Of a DNA stretch of 64,000 nucleotides, positions 8,640-53,109 are shown piece by piece. The notes beneath the pieces were generated by a model, which saw only the letters and a list, made by a program, of their open reading frames with translations, was not told the DNA's origin and ran no database searches. Location of the stretch: positions 1 to 64,000 of IMG/VR virus record IMGVR_UViG_3300032163_000010, one strand, 5' to 3'. The position numbers were made by a program, and so were the translations under genes. The stretch is from a virus. The number at the start of each line of letters is the position of its first letter. The first letter of the stretch is position 1.

Positions 8640-10172
8640 TCACCTCACGATACTAAACGGAGCGATCAATGGAGGAACCCACGGGGCAGGAGGCTCCACG
8701 CTCGCCGCCCACACGACGTTACACACAGCATCCGAGAGGTCCTTCGATCCACCCTTCGGATGATCAACGTGTTTTGCATTCAATTGAATGAGATTCTTCC
8801 ATTCTTCGAGCAGCTTCGTATTCGGGGCAACATGTAATTGCTCCGCGTATTGCAACTTGCGGATGATCTCATAATGTTCAAGCTTGACTAGGTTGTTATA
8901 GACCATGACCCCAGCAAGTTGCAACTCCTTCTGTAACTCCGGATACTGCCAGGTATCGGAGACGAACATCCCAATTCGAAGATCATTAACAATTCCCGGA
9001 TAATGAATACTATCCCTAGGATCCCCAAGGATGTCTCTCCTCACGACTAACGGATTGATCTCCATAGCGACCTTCTTACCGGCCTTCTTGATCAATAATG
9101 GATCCTTAACTGCCTCTGGGTCGTACCTCTTAACTCCGATAATGTAATACTCATCAGTGTCTGAATCTAAATATCCCAACGCCAACCCGAAGGAGTCCAT
9201 CGTTCCTGCCGGATCGGCAGCAAGGATCAGATTGACCGGATTAGTTCTTTGCCTTGCTTTCCAATACGCCCATGTAGACCCTGATTCGAATACATTTAAC
9301 ATTGAGTCATTGAACTTAAGGATGCTGTCGTCCTTGTAGAACCTGTCCACTGCAGCTTGCGGGATAGCACCGTAATCCCTCCAGAAGGTGATCGGATCCT
9401 CCTTGAGCTTCGCCTGCAGGAACTCCCCGTCGAACGGAAGGTTCGGATTCATCTCCCATGTTGGGAGATTATAGCACTGCGCGTATGGGCTGTTAAGATT
9501 ATCCCTGTATAACATCCATGATTTGGTCTCAGTATACAACGGAGACGTGATGACGACATTCTTGCCGAAAAACTGGAAACTCGAGGTCGATTTTGACAAT
9601 GAACTGAATACTAACTCAGCTGAACGCTTGCCTTCCGTGCGTTCGAGCCTGTCTAATTCATCGAAAATGTTGCATTTGACTGTTCGCCCAACAAGAGCTA
9701 ACGCAGAACTGAGTCCCGCTTTGATTTCGATGTTGTACTTAGGGAACCTGATCTCATTTGCATAGCACTCTGCGCCATATTTCTCGAAAAACGGCGATTT
9801 CAGGACGGATTTCTTGACCTCCCAGTAGATTGTGTCTTCGGCTTGTTCTTCGGATGTGGCTACACAGACGATGTAGAACTTGGAACCCTTCTCCAGATGG
9901 AACTTTTCCTCGATATCTGGCGAAGTTAGGAGGTCAAACGCCTCATAGCAGGCGATATCTGCACCGAGGCGAGTCTTACCCCCACGCATTCCCGCGATCA
10001 ACACGAGCAAGATCGTCTTCGGGACGCGGTAAAATGTCTCAAATATGTATTTCTGCATGGGGTAGGGCTTGCGACCCAGGAAATACTCATTCTCGACGAA
10101 CGAGGCAGGGTCAGTCCTCGCTTGCATCTCCAGATACATCTGCATAGTCGAGGAGTAAACCATCAAAATCAC
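8640..10172 (-). CDS. terL: Terminase large subunit
   Basis: Walker A AGMRGGKT, Walker B NIFDE, coupling motif ITSP, LPTWEMNP, nuclease AADPA and C-terminal DHPKGGSKDLSDA. Confidence 0.92.
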   Translation of the reverse strand: MILMVYSSTMQMYLEMQARTDPASFVENEYFLGRKPYPMQKYIFETFYRVPKTILLVLIAGMRGGKTRLGADIACYEAFDLLTSPDIEEKFHLEKGSKFYIVCVATSEEQAEDTIYWEVKKSVLKSPFFEKYGAECYANEIRFPKYNIEIKAGLSSALALVGRTVKCNIFDELDRLERTEGKRSAELVFSSLSKSTSSFQFFGKNVVITSPLYTETKSWMLYRDNLNSPYAQCYNLPTWEMNPNLPFDGEFLQAKLKEDPITFWRDYGAIPQAAVDRFYKDDSILKFNDSMLNVFESGSTWAYWKARQRTNPVNLILAADPAGTMDSFGLALGYLDSDTDEYYIIGVKRYDPEAVKDPLLIKKAGKKVAMEINPLVVRRDILGDPRDSIHYPGIVNDLRIGMFVSDTWQYPELQKELQLAGVMVYNNLVKLEHYEIIRKLQYAEQLHVAPNTKLLEEWKNLIQLNAKHVDHPKGGSKDLSDAVCNVVWAASVEPPAPWVPPLIAPFSIVR

Positions 10173-10739: not shown

Positions 10740-10975
10740 TCCCTCAAACTGAGAATTTCTATGATTGGGCTTGTGGGCTTGTGACTTCGTCCGTCGAACT
10801 TAGTGGGGTAATCATGAGGAACTGAGCTGCAGACAACTGGATTCCTCGACGGGACAAATTTTGACACGGTGAATTAGTCAGTGAGCGATAGGTTTTGGGA
10901 AGGTGACGGGTTTTAACTAGGGTGCATCATGTAATAATGAGGATCATCAATAGGGATCAGGGTGTGAGGTCATAG

Positions 10976-11069
10976 ATAGAGACCCTCAATAGAGATCCTC
11001 AAGAGCATAGATAAATAGCGTAGATAAATAGCATAGATAAAGAGTATAGATAAAGAGTATAGAGAAAGA
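10976..11069 (+). repeat. 13-bp-period tandem repeats (2 + 5 units)
   Basis: ATAGAGACCCTCA and ATAGAGATCCTCA, then GCATAGATAAATA, GCGTAGATAAATA, GCATAGATAAAGA, GTATAGATAAAGA and GTATAGAGAAAGA. Confidence 0.85.
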
Positions 11070-11088
11070 GAGAGTAAGTGAGAAAGAA

Positions 11089-11448
11089 ATGAGAACAGCA
11101 ACAGCAGCCAGAAACTCTGTATCGCAAGTAGATACAGAAAAAGAGTACATCGTTTCTCTAGATAGAGAGACGACAGCAACTATCTCTGCGGTTGAGAAGT
11201 CTCAACTCCAGAGAAGTCAGATATCTATAGATGGAAAGGTTCCTTGGATGACATCAATTCTACCAAGAATAAGAGGAGAGAAACTAACAGTGTGGAGATT
11301 ATATGTCTCTATACAGCATACCTACGGAGAAAACAGCATCAGTCGAATGAGAGTATATAAATACCTCAATTCACTAGTTACAAAGAAGATTGCAACGAAA
11401 GAGTTCGATGTATACCAAGGAGCAGATGTCTACACGATAGATAAGTAG
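11089..11448 (+). CDS. Winged-helix DNA-binding protein, paralogue 1
   Basis: TISAVEKSQLQR...KVPW...LTVWRLY...ISRMRVYKYLNSLVTKKIA...DVY; near-duplicate of 11724..12119. Confidence 0.75.
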   Translation: MRTATAARNSVSQVDTEKEYIVSLDRETTATISAVEKSQLQRSQISIDGKVPWMTSILPRIRGEKLTVWRLYVSIQHTYGENSISRMRVYKYLNSLVTKKIATKEFDVYQGADVYTIDK

Positions 11449-11676
11449 AACAAGTAGATTAGGTAAGTCTACATCCACTCGTTTTTTAGAGACAGCAAGA
11501 GCTGATAGATCAAGGATCTAGATGAGGCACAGATAGAGAGAGAGACGATGAGGAGGTGAGAGAGAGATGAAGTACGGAGTAGAACTAGCAGAAGTACAGC
11601 TTCCGGTTAGAGAACCGAAAGTTCGGAAGAAATAGATACACGAAGAGTGTATATCGATAGAGGATCACGATTTTTT

Positions 11677-11703
11677 AGGAATATACGCGAGATGATGCGT
11701 ATG
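11677..11703 (+). promoter_or_regulatory. Conserved hairpin element, copy 1 (loop GAGATGAT)
   Basis: TTTTTT-AGGA-A-TATACGC-GAGATGAT-GCGTATG; 7-bp stem including one G-U. Confidence 0.75.
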
Positions 11704-11723
11704 AATAGATAGAGAGCCGATAG

Positions 11724-12119
11724 ATGAAGAATCTAGATGAGGCACAGATAGAGAGAGTAGTGAGAGAAATGACAGCAAGGAAAGCATCCCAGAATACTGT
11801 AGGTAGTGTACCTACAGACCAGGTAGAGATAGTCTCTCTAGATAGAGAGACTCAAGCAACGATATCTGCAGTTGAGAGAACTCAACTCCAGAGAGGTTCG
11901 GTAGACGGCAAGATTCCGTGGAGCAAGATTCTACCGAAGTTGAAAGGCGAGAGAGTCTCGGTATACAGACTGTATACGTCTGTACAGCGAGTCTACGGAG
12001 CGGGTAGCATCAGTCGGATGAGATGCTATAAATACCTCAACGGACTCGTGACCAAGAACCTCGCAACGGTAGAATTCGACGTTTTCAACGGAGAGAACGT
12101 CTACATCGTTGCTAAGTAA
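11724..12119 (+). CDS. Winged-helix DNA-binding protein, paralogue 2 (start may be ATG 11769)
   Basis: IVSLDRETQATISAVERTQLQR...KIPW...ISRMRCYKYLNGLVTKNLA...NVY. Confidence 0.75.
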   Translation: MKNLDEAQIERVVREMTARKASQNTVGSVPTDQVEIVSLDRETQATISAVERTQLQRGSVDGKIPWSKILPKLKGERVSVYRLYTSVQRVYGAGSISRMRCYKYLNGLVTKNLATVEFDVFNGENVYIVAK

Positions 12120-12149
12120 GCCGAACAGGCTTACATCAACATTTTCTTG

Positions 12150-12176
12150 AGGAATGTGTTCGAGATGATGAACATA
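12150..12176 (+). promoter_or_regulatory. Conserved hairpin element, copy 2 (loop GAGATGAT)
   Basis: TTTTCTTG-AGGA-A-TGTGTTC-GAGATGAT-GAACATA; 7-bp stem including one G-U. Confidence 0.75.
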
Positions 12177-12189
12177 ACTAGAGAGAGAG

Positions 12190-12324
12190 ATGAGTAACAT
12201 GCAGCCAAATGTATGTCTAGCAACAAGAGAAGACTGTAAGGTTTGTCGGAAGACATGGGGAACATCTCCGTGTCAAGTCGCGCCTGCGATAGCGAACGGT
12301 AAAGTCGCTATACTGCTATCGTAG
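12190..12324 (+). CDS. Small Cys-rich protein, below the ORF-track cutoff
   Basis: MSNMQPNVCLATREDCKVCRKTWGTSPCQVAPAIANGKVAILLS*; followed by a CCTCG-GAGA-CGAGG hairpin and T6. Confidence 0.5.
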   Translation: MSNMQPNVCLATREDCKVCRKTWGTSPCQVAPAIANGKVAILLS

Positions 12325-12341
12325 ACAAGCCTTGTAGGTAT

Positions 12342-12373
12342 CCTCGGAGACGAGGCATCGATCCCCGTTTTTT
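12342..12373 (+). terminator. Hairpin plus T-tract terminator
   Basis: CCTCG-GAGA-CGAGG GNRA hairpin followed by CCCGTTTTTT. Confidence 0.5.
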
Positions 12374-12715
12374 ATACTACTCGATCTACGGATTCCGTAT
12401 CGCTAGATCCAAGATGAGCGAGTATTCGTTATCCGTTCTATAGCTCTATCGATACTAGATATCCGCAGGAAGGATTTTCGATACCACCGGAGGAGCGAGA
12501 TGCGGTCCTTAGAACTTCTCGATCTTCTCGTGAGGGATCTCGATTCGGACTTGACATCGTCCAGTCCAAAAACTCTCTATATGTTAAAAGTGGTTATGAT
12601 GATGACTACTACTATGACTCCAACATCATCATCTCAAGTTCAAGTTCTTTCTTTGAACGAACGACTTCCATACACAACATATCACCTGAAACTTAAGGGA
12701 CGTCCTACCGGTCAT

Positions 12716-12731
12716 AAGTTTTATATAGTTA
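12716..12731 (+). promoter_or_regulatory. Archaeal BRE/TATA promoter
   Basis: AAGTTTTATATAGTTA, identical to the 16-mer at 17220-17235. Confidence 0.75.
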
Positions 12732-12859
12732 ATCTACGATATCTTATCGATATACATTATCGAGAGAGTTAGATGAGGGAAACTAGAGAACGATCGTCTC
12801 TAGAGGCCATCGATCTAAGCCTGGTCGACGCGTCGACGACAAGTAAGAGAGTGAAAGAA

Positions 12860-15800
12860 ATGGAAACCAAAGACGAAGAAATGAATCTGTATAGCTACAC
12901 GGCTGATATGTATCAGGATCTGTTTGATATGATCACTGAATACATGGGAGAAGCGGAGCATATCAGCGAAGACAACGTACGGATTAAGGTGAGCGATCTA
13001 CCATCATCGGTAGAAGCGATGAAAGAACTGAGGAAGAAGTTACTCAGAAAGGATTTCATCGCGTACTGGCAGATCGCGATAGAGGAAGGCAACTAAGTTT
13101 TTAAGGACTCTCAGCGAGATGATGCTGAGCGAAAGAACGGAGAGAACGAGAGATGAAGAAAGTCTTGGATATCGGAATACCTCTACGAAGAGGCATCGAC
13201 GATGCTCTCCATTGTGGAGAGCAAATAGAGAAAGATCTGCAACTACGGCCGAGAGACGCTGGTTGCGGATTCGGCTTCCGAGATATGCAGATCCCAATAG
13301 GTGACAAGGACGAGAAGAAGATCGTTGAAGAGGTCAAGACGATCCTCCGAAAGTGTCACTTAATCAAGGGATCTTACGTCTCGGTATATGATGAAGATGA
13401 GGAGGTGAACTAGATGAAGGAAGACACGAAGATCTTGCTGATTGCAGATGCTGTGTTAGAGAAATGGACGAGTGGGAGCTACGAGGGCGTAGTTGAGAAT
13501 TCAGATGTGATATACTGCAACGATGAGGAGCTCCCTGCGGATGATGTATGGAGCATGCTGCAATCAAACGACAAATTGATTGAGAGGCTCTCCGATGGGT
13601 TAATTGAGACAATCAGGGAGCAAGTAAGAAAAGAATTCGCTCCTAGAGTGATAGTAAATATCGGCCCTGGAGATTCAGAGGACGAAGTAGAGCTGTTCTT
13701 TGAAGATCAAGAGGAGAAACATCCGAAAAAGTGAAAGAACGATGTACGAAGTAAGGCAAGATCAGTTGAATGTTCTAGACAAGAACATTCTGAATAGGAA
13801 GAATGCTATAGTAATAGCAAAGATCAGACATGCAGAGCAACCGGGGTCTTATCATGAAGTGCATGAGACTGGTATCGGAGGAGTCTACCAGTTGAAACCG
13901 AATGAAGACCTTCGCGGGGTGCCAGTGTGGGATGATGGATGTACACATTGGAACCTCGCAGAGGAGATAGAGAGAATATTAAGTAAGTGAAAAGAGAGAT
14001 GTCTGAGAGACCGAACAAGGTAGTGTACATGAAGATTCTCGTCGCTGTTAAGGCGAACGAGAAGCAAGTTACCCCAGAGTGGTTCAAGGCCATCCTGGCG
14101 GACATTGAGGAATGCTTCGACGATCAGTTCGAAGCGAAAGCATTACTCAAGGGGTTCGATATAGAACATATAAGGAGGTGAACAAGATGGAGAGAGATGA
14201 ATTGAGCGAATTAGAGAAAGAGTTGGAGAATGCGATGGATAATCTAGACATCGTAATACGAAAGTTCGAAGACCAGAACGAAGCTGTGGAGAGAGTCTAC
14301 AGCTGGTTAGACTGCAGGAGGAAGTGAAAGAAAGATGAAGAAAGTCGTTTGGACGATCGCCTTCGATATCTTCGAAGGAGACGAGGAGAATCCATCGACG
14401 GATGGATGTTTCATCAACCCTGGGCAACTGGGAGATGAACTGAGGAAGAAACTCGAGGAGAGAATCCACGAGTTAGTAGAGAAAGGAGAGTACGAGGCAT
14501 AGAAAATGTCTGTAGAGATAAAGAACGGTATGGAGTATACTAGGTATACAGAGAAAGGCACTGGCACACGCAAGTGGAAAGTCGGTCAACGGATAGAAAC
14601 GGAGTTCGTCACGAAGGCTCAGAAGGCCACTGGGAAATGGATAGACTACGAACCTATCCAACGGAGGAAGCAACAGGCAACGATAGTCGCCATCACGGTT
14701 AGGAAGAATCCTCCGTATAGGGATGTCTGGTTCAAGTTAGACTTCGTCGACGGATTTGGTTTCTGGACAACGAACGTCCACAGGGTTACAAGATATATAT
14801 AGGAGGTGAGAACGAATGAGCTATCGTTTCAAATGGTGGGCTGGAGCGATCTGGGCGGGGATAACAACGGTCGTCTTGGTCTGGTTGTTTGACCAGATAT
14901 TCAGCATCTTCTAGAGGTAAGGTAACATGCCTGAAAGAAATGCCAAGGAAATAGAATTTGACAGGCAGTTGCTTGTCAAGCTAAAGGACCTGCGGGATTT
15001 TTACCGCATCGAGGGTATGAGAGATGCTCTCTACTTCGAGGTAGTGAGCAAGATTGGGTATCTAGAAAGAAGAGAGTGAGAAGAAATGAGACAAGGAAAA
15101 GGATGGAAGTTCAGCGCACCTAGCTGGGAGTTACAGATAGACAAGATATCAGATAAGGAGCTGGGGGAGCTGTACGACACATTCGTAGGCTACTCGGATG
15201 ACATGATCGTTGTCAGAGAAAGCCTAAAGAAAGAAATAGAACGGAGGGAGGTGAAGACGAACGAAAGTCACGACAACTGAGATAGACACCAAAGACAGGG
15301 AAGGAAATGACAATCCAACGGAGTCCGTTGTGAGAGATAGGATGACCGCGGTGACTGAGGAACTAGGTTGGGATATTCTAATCACCGAGGTAGAGGAAAC
15401 AAAGAAGGGGTTCCTATTCAAGGTAGAAATAGAGATCCCTGTGGAGGTGATAAGAAAATGAAAATACAGATAATAGTCCTGACGGAACAACAGAAGAATT
15501 TCCTTGAATCAGATGCTGATCTTGGTGACATCGATCACTGGTTGGAGACCCAAACAAAGACTGCGCCAGTAGTGGAAGTTTTCGTCAGAGAAGAAGGCAC
15601 AGCGAAGGAATCCGTCTGGGGATTGTCCCCAGCAGGGGTCAATGCCATCGAGAGAGAAATTGAAGATGTCATCGTGACAGAGCAAGAGATGAACGCAGAG
15701 GAGGAAGAGAACCATGAGTCAGATCCAAAAACAAGTTGATGACCAGATTAACGGCAAGATCTGGATATGCAAGAACGACCAATGTGCCAAGGGTTGTGAT

Positions 15801-37867: not shown

Positions 37868-40800
37868 ATGATAATGACGATTAAAACTGACTTGATGAAT
37901 ACAGACTACGTCGAGGAGGACAATAAGCCATGCTTATGGTGGTTCCTCAGGGATGTAGAAGGGAAGAGGGTCAAAAGAAAGTTCTCTTGGGTCAAGCCAC
38001 ACGCGTGGAACAACGATCCGAGCTCAGGGCCGGCGACCAAGGATATATTTGGACGCACGGTATATGAGTGGACGACAAGGATGCCTTCGGAAATAGGCGG
38101 AGGGCGAGACAGATATTCGATGACATGCGAGGCAGATGTTCTGTTTCCAATGAGGGCTATGATAGACTTGGACGTCTACTGTGGGGTAGAGATTGCAGAG
38201 GATAATTCGATCAAGGCAGTAGAAAATCACGGAATCCCACCGGTATATTCGTTGTTTGATTTTGAGTACTTTTCACCGAAAGAGATTATGCCAATGCCAG
38301 GAGATCCGAAGTGGCCTGCGGTTACAGTACAATGGGGTCTCACGTCGGACAATATTATACATGTTATCGTACTGAATTTCGTGAGCCAGACACAAGCTCC
38401 TGCAGGGATCTTAACTGAGAAGTTGATCGCTGAATCGATTATACGGAAATTCATCTGGGAGAACTTCAAATCGATCACTGTCCATATCGAGCTCAAGGAT
38501 GAGAAAACTGGCAAGTGGCTCATTGAACCGCAGGATCTCACGTATCCGGTAGAGGTAACCATCGTTGAGGATGAGAGGGATCTATTCATCAAGTTCGCTG
38601 AATGGCATGAGTCGGCCGATGTAGATGGCTGGGCAGGATATAACTCTAATAACTATGATTGGCCTATGTACTTTCGTCGAGCCGATCGATTGGGTATCAG
38701 TTGGCTGGTCGCTCAACACATTAGCCCGTTGCATCGGGCATCAGCTAGGTTCAATCAACAATATAAGAAATGGGATGTCCATATATGGGGTCAGACGATT
38801 ACTGACCTGAATGAGATTTACAAAAAGTACATCAAACCCTCCGGAGAGCGAACGTCCTATGATTTCAAAATCGTTGTCAAAGACGAGTGTGGGTTCGCAT
38901 ATGATGACCTTGGAGCGTTCATTAAAACAACTTACGAGAATGACCCACAAGCTTTGATCGAGTACGCTGCCAAAGACGTCATAGCATTGAAATTGTTGAA
39001 TGAGAAGTGCGATTTGCTTCCTTACATTGATGTGTTGAGGCGAGTCGCGGGGACTCCGTTTGACAAAGCCACTTCGAACAAGGCCCTCATCGATACAATG
39101 TGTCTGAGACTTGCAGATGCCCCGTTGCCAACTGGAATCAAACATTTGAAGACCAAGAAGGCAACTGGTGCGTTGGTCATCATGCCCGAAGTAGGGCTGC
39201 ATGAATGGGTCATATTGCTTGATCTCAAGTCAATCTATCCGACGATGATTATTGCATACAACCTAAGTCCGGAGTGTAAAGATCCTAACGGAGAGATTCA
39301 AATCCCAATCGTGGATGCATTTGGTCGCATAGTGGAGTACGTTGGATTCAGAAAGAGCCCTCAAGGAGTCCTCCCGAAGGTTGCCGCACACATGATGGTG
39401 CTGAGAGAACACTACCGCACGTTGGGACGAGAGATCGAGTCACAAGCGAACTTCGATAAACAATACAGAGAACGGATTAAATCTCAGGAAACCGTAGCGA
39501 AGTTCCTTGCGTGTGCAATTAATGGAGTCCTAGCTTATCCAGGGTTCAGATTATATGATCCTGAAGTATTCAACTGTGTCACATCGATCACGCGATCTGT
39601 GATTTGGAAGATCCGAGGGTTCCTTGAACCGAAGGGGTTCAAGACCATGTATGGAGACAGTGTCTCAGCAGATTCCCCGGTATTAATAAAGAGGGATAAT
39701 GAAATCGATATACTCCCGATAAGTGAATTAGCCCCGACCGCTGAGGGAAGATACGCATTAGATAATATTGAAGTATGGACGAGAAATGGGTTTAAACAAG
39801 GACATTATGTTAAGGTCTCAAATCCTCATAAAACGATGTATAGAGTAAATACAATAGACGGAATTGTAGATGTAACTGAAGATCATTCATTGTTCGATCT
39901 AGAAGGAAAAGAAGTCAAACCAACAGAATTACCGAAAAGAATAGAAACGGTAGTATATCCTATAAGACTAGGACAAACAGAGATATCAGAAGATGAAGCT
40001 TGGTTGCTAGGATTGATTTGTGCCGAAGGAAGCCTTATAGGGAATAACGAACAACCAGTTATAAGTTGTGATGAAGATAAATTAAGATGGGCGAAAGAAA
40101 TACTTGATGGAATGGGGTATGAATCATGGTTACATGATTACACTGAATCATCGAAGTGTTGGAGATTATGTGTATCGACTAAAGCGAGAGGTTTATTTAG
40201 GGAATGCACAACAGGGTTATCTGGTTGGAAAGGAAGAAATAAGAAGGTTCCAAAACGAATCCTTAACTCCGGCAAGGATGCTATGATAGGGTTCTTAAGG
40301 GGGTTGTGGGCAGGAGACGCCCCAGTTGATCAGGGAAATTATATTGATGAGTTTAAGAGAATTGATTTACGGTCACAGTCATTAATAGTGGGGGTGGAAT
40401 ATATAATGTATCAATTAGGATTCGTGACATCTTGGAGAAGTGCAGGATCAAACAAATTATCATATGGATTAAGAATAGGGAAAACCAAGAAGATTGCATC
40501 AGGGGTGGTAAGGGAAGTAAAAGAGATTCAATACAAAGATCTAGTGTACGATATCGGTACAAATGATGGAACGTTCGCTATAGGCAGGGTTGTAGCACAC
40601 AACACCGATTCGATCTTTATTAAACTGACCGCAACGAATAAAGAGGACGCAGCGAGGCAAGGTTTCGAGATCGAAACGATGGTTCAAGAATATATTACTG
40701 AATGGACGAGGTCCCTTGGAGCAACGTATCCGATAGATGTCAAGTTCGAACATTTGTTTGATCGGATTTTGTGGAAGAAAAGAGCCAAGGGAGATGACCC

Positions 40801-41383
40801 CGCGAAGAAGCACTACGGAGGTCACTATATCATGAAGGACGGTGCATGGAAGGAAGGGCTCAAGATCTCCGGATTGGCTCCTAAGTCATCGGCAAGTGCT
40901 TTGTTCACGAGGAAATTGACTAGTCAGTTCCTTGAGTTAGTTCTTGAGAAACATGACATCGATTCAGCAGTAATGATCGTGAGCCAAGCTTGGGAAGGGA
41001 TCTTGCTGACCAAGGACGTTTCAACTATTGGGATTCCCAAGGGGTTACATCAAGTAGTGGCCGATCCAGAAGACGCTCACGGATCGACTAAGCCGTGGAT
41101 CGAAGGGGTATTCCATGCAAAGAAGGTCTTTCAGTGGAGGTTTTCTGAAGATGACAAGCCTAAGTTGATTTATACGGTTCCTACAAAGGAGTTCCCATAT
41201 AAGACTCTATGTTTGAATGTTGATCAAACGACAATCCCTAAGGGGGTTCGGGTCGATTGGAACCTTCAACGGGAGAAGGTCATCAAGAACAAGTTTTTCG
41301 AACTACTTGAAGCCATAGGTCGTGATTGGTCAGAGATCGAATTCAAAGTCCGCAAGACAAGGATGGATCAGTTCTTTGGTTAA
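37868..41383 (+). CDS. polB: Family B DNA polymerase with intein
   Basis: Exo I FDFE, Exo II GYNSNNYDW, Exo III YAAKD, motif A DLKSIYP, motif C YGD|TDS and KKHY; motif B is atypical (KFLACAING). Confidence 0.93.
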   Translation: MIMTIKTDLMNTDYVEEDNKPCLWWFLRDVEGKRVKRKFSWVKPHAWNNDPSSGPATKDIFGRTVYEWTTRMPSEIGGGRDRYSMTCEADVLFPMRAMIDLDVYCGVEIAEDNSIKAVENHGIPPVYSLFDFEYFSPKEIMPMPGDPKWPAVTVQWGLTSDNIIHVIVLNFVSQTQAPAGILTEKLIAESIIRKFIWENFKSITVHIELKDEKTGKWLIEPQDLTYPVEVTIVEDERDLFIKFAEWHESADVDGWAGYNSNNYDWPMYFRRADRLGISWLVAQHISPLHRASARFNQQYKKWDVHIWGQTITDLNEIYKKYIKPSGERTSYDFKIVVKDECGFAYDDLGAFIKTTYENDPQALIEYAAKDVIALKLLNEKCDLLPYIDVLRRVAGTPFDKATSNKALIDTMCLRLADAPLPTGIKHLKTKKATGALVIMPEVGLHEWVILLDLKSIYPTMIIAYNLSPECKDPNGEIQIPIVDAFGRIVEYVGFRKSPQGVLPKVAAHMMVLREHYRTLGREIESQANFDKQYRERIKSQETVAKFLACAINGVLAYPGFRLYDPEVFNCVTSITRSVIWKIRGFLEPKGFKTMYGDSVSADSPVLIKRDNEIDILPISELAPTAEGRYALDNIEVWTRNGFKQGHYVKVSNPHKTMYRVNTIDGIVDVTEDHSLFDLEGKEVKPTELPKRIETVVYPIRLGQTEISEDEAWLLGLICAEGSLIGNNEQPVISCDEDKLRWAKEILDGMGYESWLHDYTESSKCWRLCVSTKARGLFRECTTGLSGWKGRNKKVPKRILNSGKDAMIGFLRGLWAGDAPVDQGNYIDEFKRIDLRSQSLIVGVEYIMYQLGFVTSWRSAGSNKLSYGLRIGKTKKIASGVVREVKEIQYKDLVYDIGTNDGTFAIGRVVAHNTDSIFIKLTATNKEDAARQGFEIETMVQEYITEWTRSLGATYPIDVKFEHLFDRILWKKRAKGDDPAKKHYGGHYIMKDGAWKEGLKISGLAPKSSASALFTRKLTSQFLELVLEKHDIDSAVMIVSQAWEGILLTKDVSTIGIPKGLHQVVADPEDAHGSTKPWIEGVFHAKKVFQWRFSEDDKPKLIYTVPTKEFPYKTLCLNVDQTTIPKGVRVDWNLQREKVIKNKFFELLEAIGRDWSEIEFKVRKTRMDQFFG
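39659..40603 (+). mobile_element. Intein with LAGLIDADG homing endonuclease in PolB motif C (315 aa)
   Basis: YGD|SVSADSP...VTEDHSL...LLGLICAEG...FLRGLWAGD...VYDI...VVAHN|TDS; more AT-rich than the exteins. Confidence 0.92.
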
Positions 41384-50401: not shown

Positions 50402-51049
50402 ATGATTTACGTCGATAGCCGTGAGCCTGCCGAAGTGATGCAGAGAGTCTGGGATAGGAAGATATCTCATATAGTGAAGAAACTCGAGGTGGCGGATTTT
50501 CAAAATGAAAAAGAAACGGCGTTTATCGAAAGGAAGAAACCAGAAGACATCTGGGGAAGAGTCCTCAATAAGAACAACGGATGGGATGATCAAATGGGGA
50601 GGCTCTCTGAATATGCTTATGCACATAATGCCATGCCTTGGCTCATCGTTGAAGGGAGCTTTGATGCCGCTATACGCCGCACCAACGGGAAGATCCATGT
50701 CGATGAGACTCGAGGAGCGATTGTCAGCGCTGCTGTTAGGTATGGAATCGCGGTCTGGAATGCCGACTCGTTGGATGACCTCCTCACCGTGGTCTGTGCT
50801 ATCTGCGACAAAGCAGATAGAGAACTAGGAGTTCCAAGGAGATTACCATTCTCTCACTTAGCTATGGATAAACGCGCAGCAATCTTGATGAACGTGTGTC
50901 ATGTAAGTTCGAGACAAGCCGAGTCGTTGTTGAATTACTTTGGATCAGTTAGAAATGTGTTGTTAGCTTCAGAAGATCAACTAGCGATTGTGAATAATGT
51001 TGGGAGGATAACTGCGAGAAAGATATGCCAGTATAAGGACTCGGTGTGA
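50402..51049 (+). CDS. ERCC4/XPF-family structure-specific nuclease with HhH domain
   Basis: IYVDSRE, ADF, IERK, LIVEG and the HhH segment LLNYFGSVRNVLLASEDQLAIVNNVG. Confidence 0.9.
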   Translation: MIYVDSREPAEVMQRVWDRKISHIVKKLEVADFQNEKETAFIERKKPEDIWGRVLNKNNGWDDQMGRLSEYAYAHNAMPWLIVEGSFDAAIRRTNGKIHVDETRGAIVSAAVRYGIAVWNADSLDDLLTVVCAICDKADRELGVPRRLPFSHLAMDKRAAILMNVCHVSSRQAESLLNYFGSVRNVLLASEDQLAIVNNVGRITARKICQYKDSV

Positions 51050-53109
51050 GGCTAGTGCATATATATGATCGGATGACAGAGGAATTCGTTCATAGGAAGT
51101 GTGCACATGCTGATATCTATCCCGCGCATTATGCTTGTTCACTGGGAGGACATATATTTAACTTGGTGAACCAGAAGACAGAGGTTCTTATGGCTAATGC
51201 TATCCCAGTTGATACAAGGTTGCACACAATGTTCGTTGCTCCACCAGGATGTTGCTTAGACCAATGGTCGATAGTCACTATGGCCGATCAGTCGAAGACG
51301 TTCCTCAGAGATGTAGTTATAGGAGATAAATTGGCATCACAGAATGGGCAAGAGAACATAGTAACAAACGTAATGAAATCTCTGAAGATCAATATGCTGA
51401 GAATACAGCCACATAACATGTGTGTATCTGCAGAGCACGAGATCAAAACAAAAGATGATTGGGCATTTGCCGGAGACCTTCAAGAAGGAGATTTGATAGA
51501 GACTAGGTATTCCAAGGAGGGATTGCAATTCCTTGGATGGTGGATTGCCGAAGGGAGATTCGAAGGCAAATGGTGGACGCCGGTCATCGCAAACAAAGAT
51601 GAATCTGTGATTGAAGAATTAGAAACTGTTGCGAACAAATATGGATGTTCATGGAACGACGCAGGACCTATGGAGTATAGATTCACTCATGGTAAGAATT
51701 CTTCTGAGAGAAACAAACTAGCTGAATGGTTGAGATACTTTGGGTATGAGAAAGGTAGAGATACTAATTCAGGGAACAAACATGTACCTGAGGAATTGAT
51801 GAAATATTTAGAGTTAGATGGGTTAGTTTGGATTCTTAGCCAGATGTGGAGAGGAGATGGTACTGATAGAACACAGATGAGGTATGCATCGAAATCTAGA
51901 ATGTTACTTGAACAAGTATGTGACATTCTAGATTTAGTTCATGTAGAGTATAGCGTATATGACTACGGCAAAGACACAGCTGAAGTATACGTACATGAAG
52001 AGTTTAGAGAAAGATTATATGATGCATTTGAGAGAGCAAGTCACTTCACCCAATTTAAAGGACTAATGAAAATAGACACTGTCCGTGAAGTATTATATCG
52101 CAGATACGCTATTGACCTAGAAACCACACAAAGCCATTTTGTTGCGAATGATGTTGTGGTGCATAATAGCAAGACCTTCTGGCAAGAGCAGTTCCTTCGA
52201 GGCAAGTGGTGTATATTGGAAGGCACGATGACACAACATGGGTTCGAAGGATCGACGACAGAAGCAGGGTTTGTAGGATCGGCGACGATGTCTGAAAATG
52301 GAGATCCCGTCGTGACTCCGGGGTTAGCTAAAGTCTACGAAGAGGGGATCGTGGGATTTGAGGAATTCTCGGCGTTGACGGCGATGATGAAATCTAGCCA
52401 TTCTCAGCAATTAGATGCAGCGTTGTTGTTGGCCCTTGATAGGGGTTACGTCGTTAAGAGACTCAGGGCGGGAAAGATCGGTTATAAGACTAATGTGACC
52501 GTATGGGCGGGAACCCAACCTTCAAGGTTCGATCTAACTTCGGGATTAGGACGAAGATTCTACTATCTTTTGCTGATCCCCACTGAAGAGGACAGGAGAG
52601 TGCTAAGAGAGAAGATAAGAGCTGGTTGGGGGGTCAGGATGGACGTGGAGAGGACTAATAAGATCAGAGCTAGTATAGATGAATTGAAGGATCGCCTATT
52701 TAAGGTAAAGACAGTTAAAAAGGATCCGTCGGTGAACTTGTTATTAGATGAACTGAATATGCCACCGTATGAAGAACAATTGTATGTCAGATTGATATTG
52801 GGATATAAGGTGATCACTGAGGACTTCGGAGAGACGTTGACGTTAGACATCGATCCAACAGTGGAGATGCTGTGCAGACAGGAGTCGATATGGAGGAAGG
52901 CAATCAGGAGGGGTCCAGAGATAGCCGAGGTTGTCTCTTTGCTACGGGCAAATGGCAATAGTATGTCCATGATCGAGTTGAGAGATGCAATGATGGAATT
53001 CGGAATGGATTGGAAACGATCGAGTGAGTTAATCACCGAGTTGTCGAAGATGAAGATCCTCGCAATGGGGGAAACGAATGTCTCATTAAGAGGGAAGTGG
53101 GATGGGTAA
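51046..53109 (+). CDS. MCM-like AAA+ helicase with intein and C-terminal wH domain
   Basis: Spliced P-loop APPGC|SKT, STTEAGFVG, GIVGFEEF and GLGRRF; lacks the large MCM N-terminal domain. Confidence 0.7.
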   Translation: MRLVHIYDRMTEEFVHRKCAHADIYPAHYACSLGGHIFNLVNQKTEVLMANAIPVDTRLHTMFVAPPGCCLDQWSIVTMADQSKTFLRDVVIGDKLASQNGQENIVTNVMKSLKINMLRIQPHNMCVSAEHEIKTKDDWAFAGDLQEGDLIETRYSKEGLQFLGWWIAEGRFEGKWWTPVIANKDESVIEELETVANKYGCSWNDAGPMEYRFTHGKNSSERNKLAEWLRYFGYEKGRDTNSGNKHVPEELMKYLELDGLVWILSQMWRGDGTDRTQMRYASKSRMLLEQVCDILDLVHVEYSVYDYGKDTAEVYVHEEFRERLYDAFERASHFTQFKGLMKIDTVREVLYRRYAIDLETTQSHFVANDVVVHNSKTFWQEQFLRGKWCILEGTMTQHGFEGSTTEAGFVGSATMSENGDPVVTPGLAKVYEEGIVGFEEFSALTAMMKSSHSQQLDAALLLALDRGYVVKRLRAGKIGYKTNVTVWAGTQPSRFDLTSGLGRRFYYLLLIPTEEDRRVLREKIRAGWGVRMDVERTNKIRASIDELKDRLFKVKTVKKDPSVNLLLDELNMPPYEEQLYVRLILGYKVITEDFGETLTLDIDPTVEMLCRQESIWRKAIRRGPEIAEVVSLLRANGNSMSMIELRDAMMEFGMDWKRSSELITELSKMKILAMGETNVSLRGKWDG
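51253..52167 (+). mobile_element. Intein with LAGLIDADG endonuclease in the helicase P-loop (305 aa)
   Basis: C|CLDQWS...VSAEH...FLGWWIAEG...MWRGDG...AIDLE...FVANDVVVHN|S. Confidence 0.9.

What the first reader, a model, noticed from the sequence alone, without database searches (positions are those of the whole stretch)
11671..13131. Three covarying RNA hairpins with an invariant GAGAUGAU loop, each just after a T-tract in the early region (possible nut-like or processing signal)
Seen in sequence: AGGA-N-T-N5-C-GAGATGAT-G-N5' occurs at 11677, 12150 and 13104 with identical spacing. The stems differ completely but stay paired: TATACGC/GCGTATG, TGTGTTC/GAACATA and CTCAGC/GCTGAG. Two stems use G-U pairs, which points to RNA. 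Each copy is intergenic, follows a T-tract typical of archaeal terminators, and precedes a purine-rich spacer and start codon about 14-24 nt downstream. Inference: it is a binding site for one protein. Options are a boxA/boxB-like antitermination signal, an endonuclease processing site, or a K-loop-like L7Ae site (C-GA-GAU-GA-U-G resembles the D'/C' K-loop). I know of no such element described in archaeal viruses.
Basis: partly seen in the sequence, partly recalled or inferred. Interest (0 to 1): 0.85.

Follow-up and report, generated by a model that had tools for sequence, protein, structure and literature searches.

The report
Invariant-loop hairpins between viral early genes
Three small hairpins with the same eight-letter loop but different, still-pairing stems sit between the first genes of an uncultivated, probably archaeal, tailed virus and recur in its closest relatives; they look like a docking site for one unknown factor and mark the seams where early genes are swapped.

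Summary
Three 6-7 bp hairpins with the loop GAGATGAT lie at 11682-11703, 12155-12176 and 13110-13129. They are the only copies in the 72-kb genome. Three more copies lie in the closest relatives' contigs, with two new stems (CTCTC/GAGAG, TCTCCGA/TCGGAGA), the same loop, and the same upstream motif TTNTTNARGAMT in fixed register. Six of seven stem pairs change on both sides.

The "T-tract" part is only partly right. A run of five or more T occurs in 2 of 6 copies, so a terminator link is not conserved.

In the relatives, the hairpin lies inside a mini-ORF/wHTH-gene unit with no oligo-T before it, so it should be transcribed. The units also sit at gene-order breakpoints and at strain-level insertions.

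My best reading, at confidence 0.42, is a sense-strand RNA operator for one loop-reading factor, carried on a portable intergenic cassette. The K-loop (L7Ae) likeness is real but incomplete, because the 3n base is missing. The main rival is a promoter-cassette reading, like PeSLs or the HF2 intergenic repeats. No RNA data were available.

No match was found in Rfam, in 2.9 million viral contigs, or in the papers searched. Earlier notes of this scan describe other hairpin families at gene borders in other archaeal viruses, but not this one.

The parts
11671..11682 (+). Upstream motif of unit 1 (TTTTTTAGGAAT; family consensus TTNTTNARGAMT), in fixed register with the loop
   Evidence: Invariant columns T5 T6 T8 T9 A11 G13 A14 T16 of alignment A2.
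11682..11703 (+). Hairpin 1: TATACGC / loop GAGATGAT / GCGTATG
   Evidence: 51.5 bits; RNA -6.9 kcal/mol.
12144..12155 (+). Upstream motif of unit 2 (TTCTTGAGGAAT)
   Evidence: family D3.
12155..12176 (+). Hairpin 2: TGTGTTC / GAGATGAT / GAACATA
   Evidence: 53.9 bits; -5.5 kcal/mol. Contigs of runs X3 and X4 diverge or duplicate at 12142-12174.
13098..13109 (+). Upstream motif of unit 3 (TTTTTAAGGACT)
13110..13129 (+). Hairpin 3: CTCAGC / GAGATGAT / GCTGAG
   Evidence: 53.1 bits; -8.6 kcal/mol. It lies at a gene-order breakpoint relative to L069.
11567..11635 (+). Mini-ORF (22 aa) behind a full GGAGGTGA ribosome-binding site. A 23-24-aa mini-ORF stands before the hairpin in L004 and in both L069 copies.
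   Evidence: The two L069 mini-ORFs differ mainly by synonymous changes (read).
11769..12119 (+). Winged-helix paralogue 2, the gene served by unit 1. Paralogues follow the hairpin in L004 and L069 too.
   Evidence: weak ArsR/MarR/Fur-type wHTH fold matches, best E 5e-3.
11483..11542 (+). Paralogous spacer after wHTH1. It has the same T6-AG start and the same 45-nt downstream block as unit 1, but lacks the ~28-30-nt block holding GAAT, the hairpin and TAG.
   Evidence: alignment A3; family D2: 11498-11542 vs 11713-11757, 93% identity.

Best explanation
Each unit is a short portable intergenic cassette: TTNTTNARGAMT, a 5-7 bp stem, the loop GAGAUGAU, then (in 5 of 6 copies) UAG 1-3 nt after the stem.

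The unit is transcribed on the sense strand as part of the early polycistronic RNA and folds into a hairpin. All eight loop bases, probably together with the single-stranded flanks, are read by one trans-acting factor. That factor is most likely a protein and is not identified here. Its binding sets the fate of the cistron that starts 13-65 nt downstream, through translation, cleavage or stability.

The most concrete candidate is a host L7Ae-type binder. The loop can form two sheared G-A pairs capped by GAU, like a K-loop.

Because the unit is the only conserved sequence between otherwise unrelated small genes, it also serves as the joint at which early-gene cassettes are gained, lost and swapped.

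Shown: the fold, the covariation, the loop invariance, the orientation, the cassette context and the seams. Inferred: that the RNA is the active form, that a single factor binds it, and what follows from binding.
For: 1. Structure is selected and sequence is not. There are five distinct stems for one loop, 92.9% of cells pair, 6 of 7 pairs change on both sides, and 0 of 500 shuffles reach the covariation score. Slid registers give 36-57% pairing.
2. All 8 loop bases and 8 of 12 upstream bases are invariant in 6 of 6 copies, although the stems turned over fully. This is the signature of an apical recognition loop.
3. All 6 copies have the same sense as the flanking genes and lie in spacers between co-directional genes.
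4. In L069 and L004, no run of five or more T lies between the upstream AT-rich box or mini-ORF and the hairpin (sequence read). RNA polymerase coming from upstream should therefore transcribe the hairpin.
5. The two non-Watson-Crick pairs inside stems are U-G and G-U on the + strand. Hairpin 2 folds at -5.5 kcal/mol on the sense strand against -3.7 on the opposite strand. As DNA the hairpins are marginal, at -2.5 to -5.5 kcal/mol with an 8-nt loop.
6. The unit does not match the virus's own clear BRE/TATA boxes: CGAAANTKTTAWATA occurs 4 times against 0 expected.
7. Seams:
- A ~28-30-nt block holding the hairpin is present in one of two paralogous spacers and absent from the other.
- The genes either side of hairpin 3 are not neighbours in L069.
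- One contig of run X3 carries 12142-12174 twice around 322 extra letters, and a contig of X4 departs from the window right after 12174 (contigs laid at 80% likeness).
8. K-loop likeness: GA...GAUGA, with the same 3-nt GAU as the k-turn in the l7ae 5'UTR through which L7Ae represses its own translation (passages of PMC5539422). L7Ae makes no significant contact with the C helix, so it should accept terminal loops (passages of PMC3884654).
Against: - No RNA data exist. No listed run holding the stretch is on record as RNA, so transcription of the hairpin is inferred.
- The fixed-distance T-rich motif could be a TATA box. The start site would then fall about 8-12 nt after the loop begins, inside the 3' arm. 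That would leave sensible 17-32-nt leaders and put the hairpin outside the RNA made from that promoter.
- The K-loop reading fails one defining feature: there is no 3n partner for U8. The loop between the GA steps is only 3 nt. All eight loop bases are fixed, which is more than a generic K-loop needs.
- The virus encodes no L7Ae, LSM or Nop domain, so the binder would have to be a host protein or an unrecognised viral one.
- There are only 6 copies, 5 of them distinct, from two or three closely related viruses.
- The first 3.5 kb of the early region is full of other short hairpins: 29 against 5.3 +/- 2.3 in shuffles. Pairing alone is therefore less special here than elsewhere in the genome.
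Confidence: 0.42

Rival explanations
1. Promoter cassette, on the model of the PeSLs of T4-type phages or the class I intergenic repeats of halovirus HF2. TTNTTNAR is a weak TATA box, sometimes doubling as the oligo-T stop of the upstream gene. ARGAMT and GAGATGAT are virus-specific promoter blocks lying roughly 23 to 18 and 8 to 1 bases before the start site. The inverted arms act only on read-through RNA or not at all. Recombination between units shuffles early genes.
For: - There are three conserved blocks at fixed spacing, as in the HF2 class I repeats. In those repeats the TATA box begins 26 bases before a mapped start site, and promoter activity was shown (abstract and passages of PMC8707807).
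- CGA directly precedes the T-rich motif in 3 of 6 copies.
- Predicted leaders of 17-32 nt carry purine-rich ribosome-binding sites.
- PeSLs are promoter plus stem-loop units that sit before ORFans in plastic regions. Their stem-loop can lie between or over the promoter boxes, and they mediate insertion and deletion of genes (abstract and passages of PMC2839356).
- The same seam behaviour is seen here.
Against: - It does not explain why the two arms stay complementary while their sequence is free. For an archaeal polymerase, hairpins are not known to be needed for termination (my own knowledge).
- The T-rich motif tolerates G or C at its third position (TTTGTT, TTTTCTT), which is poor for a TATA box.
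- It does not match the four clear BRE/TATA boxes of this genome.
- In L069 the unit sits inside a mini-ORF/paralogue pair that already has an AT-rich box upstream.
- As DNA, the hairpins are too weak to extrude.
Confidence: 0.25
2. A nut-like signal. The linear motif plus hairpin load a factor onto the elongating polymerase so that it reads through later oligo-T stops (processive antitermination).
For: - The architecture, a conserved linear element followed at once by a hairpin with a fixed loop, is that of boxA-boxB (my own knowledge).
- The window has oligo-T runs after wHTH1, the mini-ORF, the 44-aa gene and the 107-aa gene, so read-through control would be useful.
Against: - The hairpin follows its nearest T-run instead of preceding it.
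- Four of 6 copies have no run of five or more T nearby.
- The loop is 8 nt, not a GNRA-like pentaloop.
- No arginine-rich N-like peptide was recognised; the mini-ORF products are not arginine-rich.
- The Elf1 match that would suggest elongation control is below Pfam's cut-off: 19.2 and 15.2 bits against 29.8.
Confidence: 0.08
3. Double-stranded DNA operators. The two arms are half-sites of dyad-symmetric operators, each read by a different dimeric winged-helix paralogue. The constant centre is a shared promoter element.
For: - The virus and its relatives carry 5 or more wHTH paralogues, with an ArsR/MarR/Fur-like fold.
- Four of 6 hairpins stand before a paralogue gene, which fits autoregulation.
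Against: - It needs five unrelated half-site specificities among close paralogues.
- The centre-to-centre distance of 13-15 bp would put the half-sites on different faces of the helix.
- The variant contig of run X3 has a different 3' arm at unit 1, although the adjacent wHTH2 gene is about 92-93% identical.
- Two units serve genes that are not wHTH genes.
Confidence: 0.08
4. Coding or start-site reading. Either the unit is part of a tiny ORF, since the motif reads (F/L)(F/L)(K/R)(N/T)-x-x-E-M-(M/I), or the loop AUG starts an upstream ORF whose translation is coupled to the next gene.
For: - The variable columns of the upstream motif are third codon positions or give conservative changes.
- ATG-started ORFs of 26 and 32 aa span the hairpin in L069.
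- ORFs running from the loop AUG end between 11 nt before and 16 nt after a downstream ATG in 4 of 5 distinct copies (sequence read).
Against: - There is no start codon before the motif in units 2 and 3.
- Relative to the upstream genes, the frames are -1, 0 and +1 (sequence read).
- Between the two L069 copies, the upstream codons differ mostly at second positions.
- The peptide tails differ in length and sequence.
- Coding pressure does not create complementary arms.
Confidence: 0.07
5. A single-stranded-DNA recombination site or a tiny mobile element, like attC or REP. The hairpin is recognised as folded DNA by a recombinase.
For: - The block is present in one and absent from the other of two paralogous spacers.
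- A duplicated unit flanks a 322-letter insert in one X3 contig.
Against: - No recombinase was linked to the units here.
- There are only 3 copies per genome, all in one 1.5-kb stretch and all in gene sense.
- The DNA fold is weak.
- Homologous exchange between 30-46-nt units explains the seams without an enzyme.
Confidence: 0.05

Closest known systems
K-loop / k-turn sites of archaeal L7Ae (C'/D' motif of C/D sRNAs, apical loop of H/ACA sRNAs, l7ae 5'UTR autoregulatory k-turn)
   Same: - A Watson-Crick stem is capped by two GA steps placed to form tandem sheared pairs.
- The 3-nt GAU equals the bulge of the S. acidocaldarius l7ae leader k-turn.
- The string AUGAUG matches most of the C box RUGAUGA.
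- A k-turn in a 5' leader is a known way to repress translation (passages of PMC5539422, PMC6009581, PMC7991803 and PMC3884654).
   Different: - There is no 3n nucleotide opposite U8; the U of CUGA is missing.
- Only 3 nt lie between the GA steps, whereas a 7-nt loop is described for H/ACA K-loops.
- All 8 loop bases are fixed.
- No D box lies at guide distance, and Rfam C/D models score 12.6-17.4 bits against gathering scores of 40-50.
- Binding was not tested.
PeSLs (promoter-early stem-loops) of T4-type phages RB49/phi1 (PMC2839356)
   Same: - Short repeated intergenic units lie before small orphan early genes in a plastic region.
- Each combines a conserved linear signal with a stem-loop.
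- Strain differences are insertions, deletions or replacements bounded by the units.
   Different: - PeSLs are about 100 bp, carry sigma-70 promoters, and have rather conserved G-run/C-run stems at varying positions.
- Here the stem sequence is free, the loop is invariant and the register is fixed.
- Promoter and terminator activity is shown for PeSLs but not for these units.
Class I intergenic repeats of halovirus HF2 (PMC8707807)
   Same: Repeats specific to an archaeal tailed virus lie between early and middle genes. They have several conserved blocks at fixed spacing and are conserved in position among relatives.
   Different: - The HF2 repeats are 56-58 bp with a mapped start site and proven promoter activity.
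- The passages read describe no covarying hairpin; an inverted repeat replaces one block in a single repeat.
- There is no sequence likeness to these units.
boxA-boxB nut sites of lambdoid phages, and coat-protein operator hairpins of RNA phages (both from my own knowledge, not checked in a paper here)
   Same: - In nut sites, a linear conserved element is followed by a hairpin whose loop is read by one protein.
- In the RNA-phage operators, a start codon sits inside the hairpin.
- In both, stems covary among relatives.
   Different: - The loop size and sequence differ.
- The unit lies after, not before, the nearest stop signal.
- No N-like or coat-like binder was found.
- The host is probably archaeal.

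Membership tests
K-loop / k-turn (L7Ae site) | Two consecutive sheared G-A pairs next to the loop or bulge | tested here: met
   At sequence level only. G1-A2 and G6-A7 of the loop are placed to pair as G1-A7 and A2-G6 in 6 of 6 copies. The definition comes from passages of PMC7991803 and PMC6009581.
K-loop / k-turn (L7Ae site) | Three loop nucleotides L1-L3 before G1b | tested here: met
   G3 A4 U5. The same GAU forms the bulge of the l7ae 5'UTR k-turn (PMC5539422 Fig. 2 legend).
K-loop / k-turn (L7Ae site) | A 3b-3n pair (U-U in C/D boxes, from CUGA opposite UGAUGA) continuing into the non-canonical stem | tested here: not met
   U8 has no partner. The base before G1 is the closing C (A in L069b), which pairs with the base after U8. 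The U-U assignment is recalled.
K-loop / k-turn (L7Ae site) | Binding by L7Ae | not testable with these tools
   No RNA-protein tool was available. The virus itself encodes no L7Ae domain.
Box C/D sRNA | C box RUGAUGA plus D box CUGA at guide distance; match to Rfam models | tested here: not met
   An exact C box occurs only in unit 2. No CUGA lies at the right distance. Rfam matches score 12.6-17.4 bits, with E 4-6, far below gathering scores.
Lambdoid nut (boxA-boxB) | Hairpin with a 5-nt GNRA-like loop, placed between the promoter and the terminators it overrides | tested here: not met
   The loop is 8 nt. In the window the unit lies 5 nt after the T-run. The feature list is from my own knowledge.
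Archaeal oligo-T terminator | A run of five or more T on the sense strand at the gene end | tested here: not met
   Present in 2 of 6 units (T6, T5). The other units have TTTTCTT, TTTATT (twice) and TTTGTT. The five-T criterion is from my own knowledge.
PeSL-type regulatory cassette | Repeated intergenic unit before orphan early genes, with strain differences bounded by the units | tested here: met
   Definition from PMC2839356.
PeSL-type regulatory cassette | The unit holds a working early promoter and a terminating stem-loop | not testable with these tools
   No RNA run was available. The T-rich motif is TATA-like at best and does not match the genome's BRE/TATA boxes.
HF2 class I intergenic repeat | Conserved blocks that include a TATA box beginning 26 bases before a mapped start site | tested here: inconclusive
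   The block layout is similar and there is no sequence likeness. No start-site data exist for these units. Reference passages from PMC8707807.

The most novel reading that the evidence does not exclude
The units are the first viral K-loop-type operators. The virus places a minimal L7Ae-type site (C-GA-GAU-GA-U-G) in the leaders of several early genes, so that an abundant host RNA-binding protein times or protects their expression. The same 30-46-nt unit serves as the universal joint by which early-gene cassettes move between strains.
Probability: 0.12. Interest if true: 0.8.

Novelty: new variant of a known kind. Interest (0 to 1): 0.5.

Why it matters
Almost nothing is known about how archaeal tailed viruses control their early genes after transcription. 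Here the comparative signal is unusually clean: one loop, five stems and a fixed flank, in a 22-46-nt element.

That gives a small, synthesisable bait for pulling down the factor that reads it. It also gives a clear pair of experiments (promoter reporter against RNA binding) to separate the two leading readings.

If the binder is L7Ae or another host RNA protein, this would be a new way for a virus to plug into host RNA machinery. If the unit is a promoter cassette, it would be an archaeal counterpart of PeSL-driven gene shuffling.

The element is confined to one small clade, so its reach is limited.

Tried and rejected
RNA evidence:
- The look-up of sequencing runs listed 4 runs and no RNA holder, so expression could not be examined.
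- Only Logan contigs could be laid. Stretches without cover in X2-X4 are not interpreted.

More family members:
- The exact pattern with the T-run found 3 IMG/VR loci, all without stems.
- The relaxed pattern found 24 loci, of which only the known relative folds.
It gave no new stem of 5 bp or more among the 116 loci other than the known relative.
Stems of 5 bp or more occurred 5 times, 3 of them in one orthologous Flavobacterium gene, and all five were in bacterial records.
- The covariance model R1 over 52 sources (552,893 nt) found nothing beyond the 6 copies. The next best hit scored 21.3 bits, E 0.22.
- Protein-led searches added little. wHTH1 found no relative in IMG/VR. wHTH2 found 2 proteins in 5.8 billion, one being itself. 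The 98-aa early protein found none.
- No analogous invariant-loop family exists in the roughly 30%-identity terminase relatives.

Antisense partner: CATCATCTC at 12627-12635 (+) complements the loop plus the closing G. The homologous place in L069 reads differently and would not pair, so I rejected this.

Outer helix between the U-run and the purine-rich ribosome-binding site: it appears in the minimum-energy folds of the three window copies but not in the L069 copies, so I rejected it as a conserved feature.

C/D sRNA: rejected.

Virus-encoded L7Ae, LSM or Nop binder: none found.

An N4-like hairpin promoter for a viral polymerase: not pursued. The abstract of PMC5569661, seen only in the listing, states that archaeal viruses encode no RNA polymerase. 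No polymerase domain turned up among the 20 proteins scanned, which is only part of the proteome.

Host: not identified.
- The protein atlas gave no usable lead.
- Terminase relatives among isolates are only about 25% identical and come from bacterial phages.
- 'Archaeal' therefore rests on four BRE/TATA-like boxes and an RFC-like clamp loader. It is likely but not proven.

Papers:
- PMC2802039 and PMC1289080 (K-loop definition papers) are not held.
Text S1 of PMC5539422, an alignment of l7ae leaders, might have allowed a direct comparison.
- The 8-mer GAGAUGAU occurs in 126 papers. None of the 10 listed titles concerns an archaeal virus.
- A search for archaeal virus, stem-loop, intergenic, early genes and tailed found no description of such an element among the 12 papers listed.

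Full report
WHAT IS THERE

The window is the first 64 kb of a 72,004-nt single-contig virus record, rated 100% complete by the collection's estimate. A leftward block of structural genes ends with a large terminase subunit at 8640-10172 on the minus strand (about 25% identity to annotated phage terminases). A rightward block of small genes starts near 11.09 kb.

In that block the three elements are exactly as described:
- 11682-11703: TATACGC / GAGATGAT / GCGTATG
- 12155-12176: TGTGTTC / GAGATGAT / GAACATA
- 13110-13129: CTCAGC / GAGATGAT / GCTGAG

Each is preceded at identical spacing by AGGA (11677, 12150, 13104) and a T-rich stretch. Each is followed after 13-23 nt by an ATG (11724, 12190, 13153). 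For the first gene, the paralogue alignment makes 11769 the likelier start.

IS IT MORE THAN CHANCE?

- The 8-mer occurs 11 times in the window (6.4 +/- 2.6 expected). Only these three occurrences have flanking complementarity of 6-7 bp; the other eight have 0-2 bp.
- In the whole genome, no other hairpin carries this loop. No other loop of 8 nt or more recurs three times with different stems.
- The repeat finder independently groups the three 46-nt units (family D3).
- The linear pattern TTNTTNARGAMT-N6-GAGATGAT hits 24 IMG/VR loci. Twenty-three have 0-3 bp of flanking pairing, and the 24th is the relative described below.

RELATIVES

The terminase finds one close relative in IMG/VR at 76% amino-acid identity (L004, a 53-kb contig). 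In JGI metagenomes it finds the same contig again (L070) and a second contig, L069.
- The early region of L004 is cut by the contig end and holds one copy: CTCTC / GAGATGAT / GAGAG.
- L069 holds that copy and a second one: TCTCCGA / GAGATGAT / TCGGAGA. There the closing pair is A-U instead of C-G.

In the gap-free alignment of the six copies, the loop is invariant and so are T5 T6 T8 T9 A11 G13 A14 T16 upstream. This gives the consensus TTNTTNARGAMT, ending at the first stem base. In five of six copies, TAG follows the stem after 1-3 nt.

For the 7-bp helix, 92.9% of cells pair and 6 of 7 pairs change on both sides. None of 500 column shuffles reaches the covariation score, and slid registers pair at 36-57%. 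The six sequences are few and partly related (L004 and L069a are nearly the same), so these numbers describe five independent stems.

A covariance model built from them scores the six copies at 51-59 bits and nothing else above 21 bits in 553 kb of related loci. Rfam has nothing.

CONTEXT

Four of the six copies share a larger cassette with these parts in order:
- a full GGAGGTGA ribosome-binding site;
- a mini-ORF of 22-24 codons (window 11567-11635);
- a 35-55-nt spacer;
- the unit;
- a purine-rich leader;
- a gene of one paralogous family, with 2 copies of this type in the window and 5 in L069.

The family models as a winged helix with weak matches to ArsR/MarR/Fur-type regulators (mean pLDDT 70.6, best E 5e-3). 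The two L069 mini-ORFs differ mostly by synonymous changes, so they are real genes (read).

The other two window copies stand before unrelated small genes, of 44 aa and 86 aa.

In L069 and L004 there is no run of five or more T between the upstream AT-rich box or preceding gene and the hairpin. Only copies 1 and 3 of the window have T6 and T5. In the relatives the hairpin should be part of the mini-ORF/paralogue transcript.

SEAMS

- The spacer after wHTH1 (11449-11570) and the spacer after the mini-ORF (11637-11771) are paralogous. Both start with T6-AG and share a 45-nt block at 93% identity. Only the second carries the ~28-30 nt with GAAT, the hairpin and TAG.
- The 107-aa gene before hairpin 3 has its L069 homologue several genes further downstream. 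The 86-aa gene after hairpin 3 follows a different gene in L069, without a hairpin.
- Logan contigs of two coded runs of 'organism A', 80-95% like the window, were laid on the stretch. One contig carries 12142-12174 twice around 322 other letters, with 255 letters on the shorter side. Another contig leaves the window right after 12174. A third starts inside the loop of unit 1 and continues with a different 3' arm before rejoining at 11705.
- A minor contig of the probable source run replaces 11466-11550 by 368 letters.
- These are contigs laid at 80% likeness from metagenome-like runs, so each is a single observation. Together they say that units and their spacers are where strains differ.

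RNA OR DNA?

- As RNA the six hairpins fold at -5.5 to -9.5 kcal/mol. With DNA parameters they fold at -2.5 to -5.5 kcal/mol, which is little for extrusion from a duplex with an 8-nt loop.
- The two non-canonical pairs inside stems are U-G and G-U on the sense strand.
- All copies are in gene sense.
- This favours RNA but does not prove it. No RNA run was listed.

The main alternative is that the T-rich motif is a TATA box.
- With the usual distance of about 26 nt, the start site would fall 8-12 nt after the loop begins, in the 3' arm. That gives leaders of 17-32 nt.
- The three-block layout recalls the proven promoter repeats of halovirus HF2 (PMC8707807, passages) and the promoter-plus-stem-loop cassettes of T4-type phages (PMC2839356, passages).
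- Against it, the motif tolerates G or C at its third position.
- It does not resemble this genome's four clear BRE/TATA boxes.
- A promoter gives no reason for the arms to stay complementary.

WHAT READS THE LOOP?

The loop can be written C-GA-GAU-GA-U-G.
- Two GA steps can form tandem sheared pairs over a 3-nt GAU cap. GAU is the same triplet as the bulge of the l7ae leader k-turn, through which L7Ae represses its own translation (PMC5539422, passages).
- L7Ae does not need the C helix (PMC3884654, passages).
- However, the 3n base that would face U8 is absent and the cap is minimal. All eight bases are fixed although the stems have turned over, which suggests a reader that touches more than a K-loop binder needs.
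- The virus has no L7Ae, LSM or Nop domain.
- By recall, the loop is also one mismatch from the full Shine-Dalgarno complement of the 16S 3' end, and it contains AUG. I could not turn either fact into a consistent mechanism. Distances to the next start vary from 20 to 72 nt, and ORFs from the loop AUG have no conserved product.

VERDICT

This is a small, uncatalogued family of invariant-loop hairpin units at early-gene seams in one clade of uncultivated, probably archaeal, tailed viruses.
- I put 0.42 on a sense-strand RNA operator read by one factor. L7Ae is the named candidate, at about 0.12 overall.
- I put 0.25 on a promoter cassette.
- The rest is spread over nut-like, DNA-operator, coding and recombination-site readings.

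Earlier notes of this scan report other covarying hairpin families at gene borders of other archaeal viruses. They gave me the PeSL lead, but none concerns this loop or these genomes.

Noticed in passing
window 11001-14500: The first 3.5 kb of the rightward early block is packed with short inverted repeats, inside genes as well as between them. There are 29 hairpins with stems of 7 bp or more, against 5.3 +/- 2.3 in shuffles. Fourteen perfect ones lie in these 3.5 kb, against 8 in the 34 kb from 22 to 56 kb. The early region of L069 is also hairpin-rich.
   Followed up: partly
window 11567-11635; L069 4410-4339 and 3200-3129 (-): A conserved mini-ORF of 22-24 codons behind a perfect GGAGGTGA site always stands upstream of the hairpin-plus-paralogue unit. 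The two L069 copies differ mainly by synonymous changes. Its function is unknown.
   Followed up: partly
window 16710, 17217, 20975, 34209 (+): Four copies of CGAAANTKTTAWATA (0 expected), a BRE/TATA-type box. In three of them a shared ...CCGGCGGTCTTT-like block follows. This is a second, distinct class of intergenic signal before the MPIS-type winged-helix genes.
   Followed up: partly
window 11454-11488, 12116-12148, 12342-12372: Gene ends after wHTH1, wHTH2 and the 44-aa gene each show a 5-7 bp hairpin, then 7-12 nt, then a T-rich run (T6 or TTTTCTT). This is a bacterial-looking stop signal with a spacer.
   Followed up: no
window 10973-11075: Tandem 13-nt repeats of the type AATAGCATAGATA lie in the long leader before wHTH1 (families D4, D5). 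TAGATAG-like words recur after the hairpins and in the leaders.
   Followed up: no
window 12596-12772; L069 3449-3360 (-): A small Thr-rich, hydrophobic ORF (M..TTTM...) behind an AT-rich box is conserved between the window and L069, in an otherwise non-coding-looking 400-nt stretch. Its first codons form a 7-bp hairpin with the loop ATGATGAT.
   Followed up: partly
The control search rings in 13 of 14 genomes at this level.
   Followed up: partly
window 37868-41383 and 51046-53109: The family B DNA polymerase carries a LAGLIDADG domain, so it probably holds an intein. A second 687-aa protein has Hint and LAGLIDADG matches.
   Followed up: no
L069 2012-1990 (-); window 13203-13223: The homologous 86/91-aa genes each hold an internal hairpin near the same codons. 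The L069 hairpin has the near-family loop GAGATGAA and a 5-bp stem. The window hairpin has an 8-bp perfect stem with an unrelated loop.
   Followed up: no
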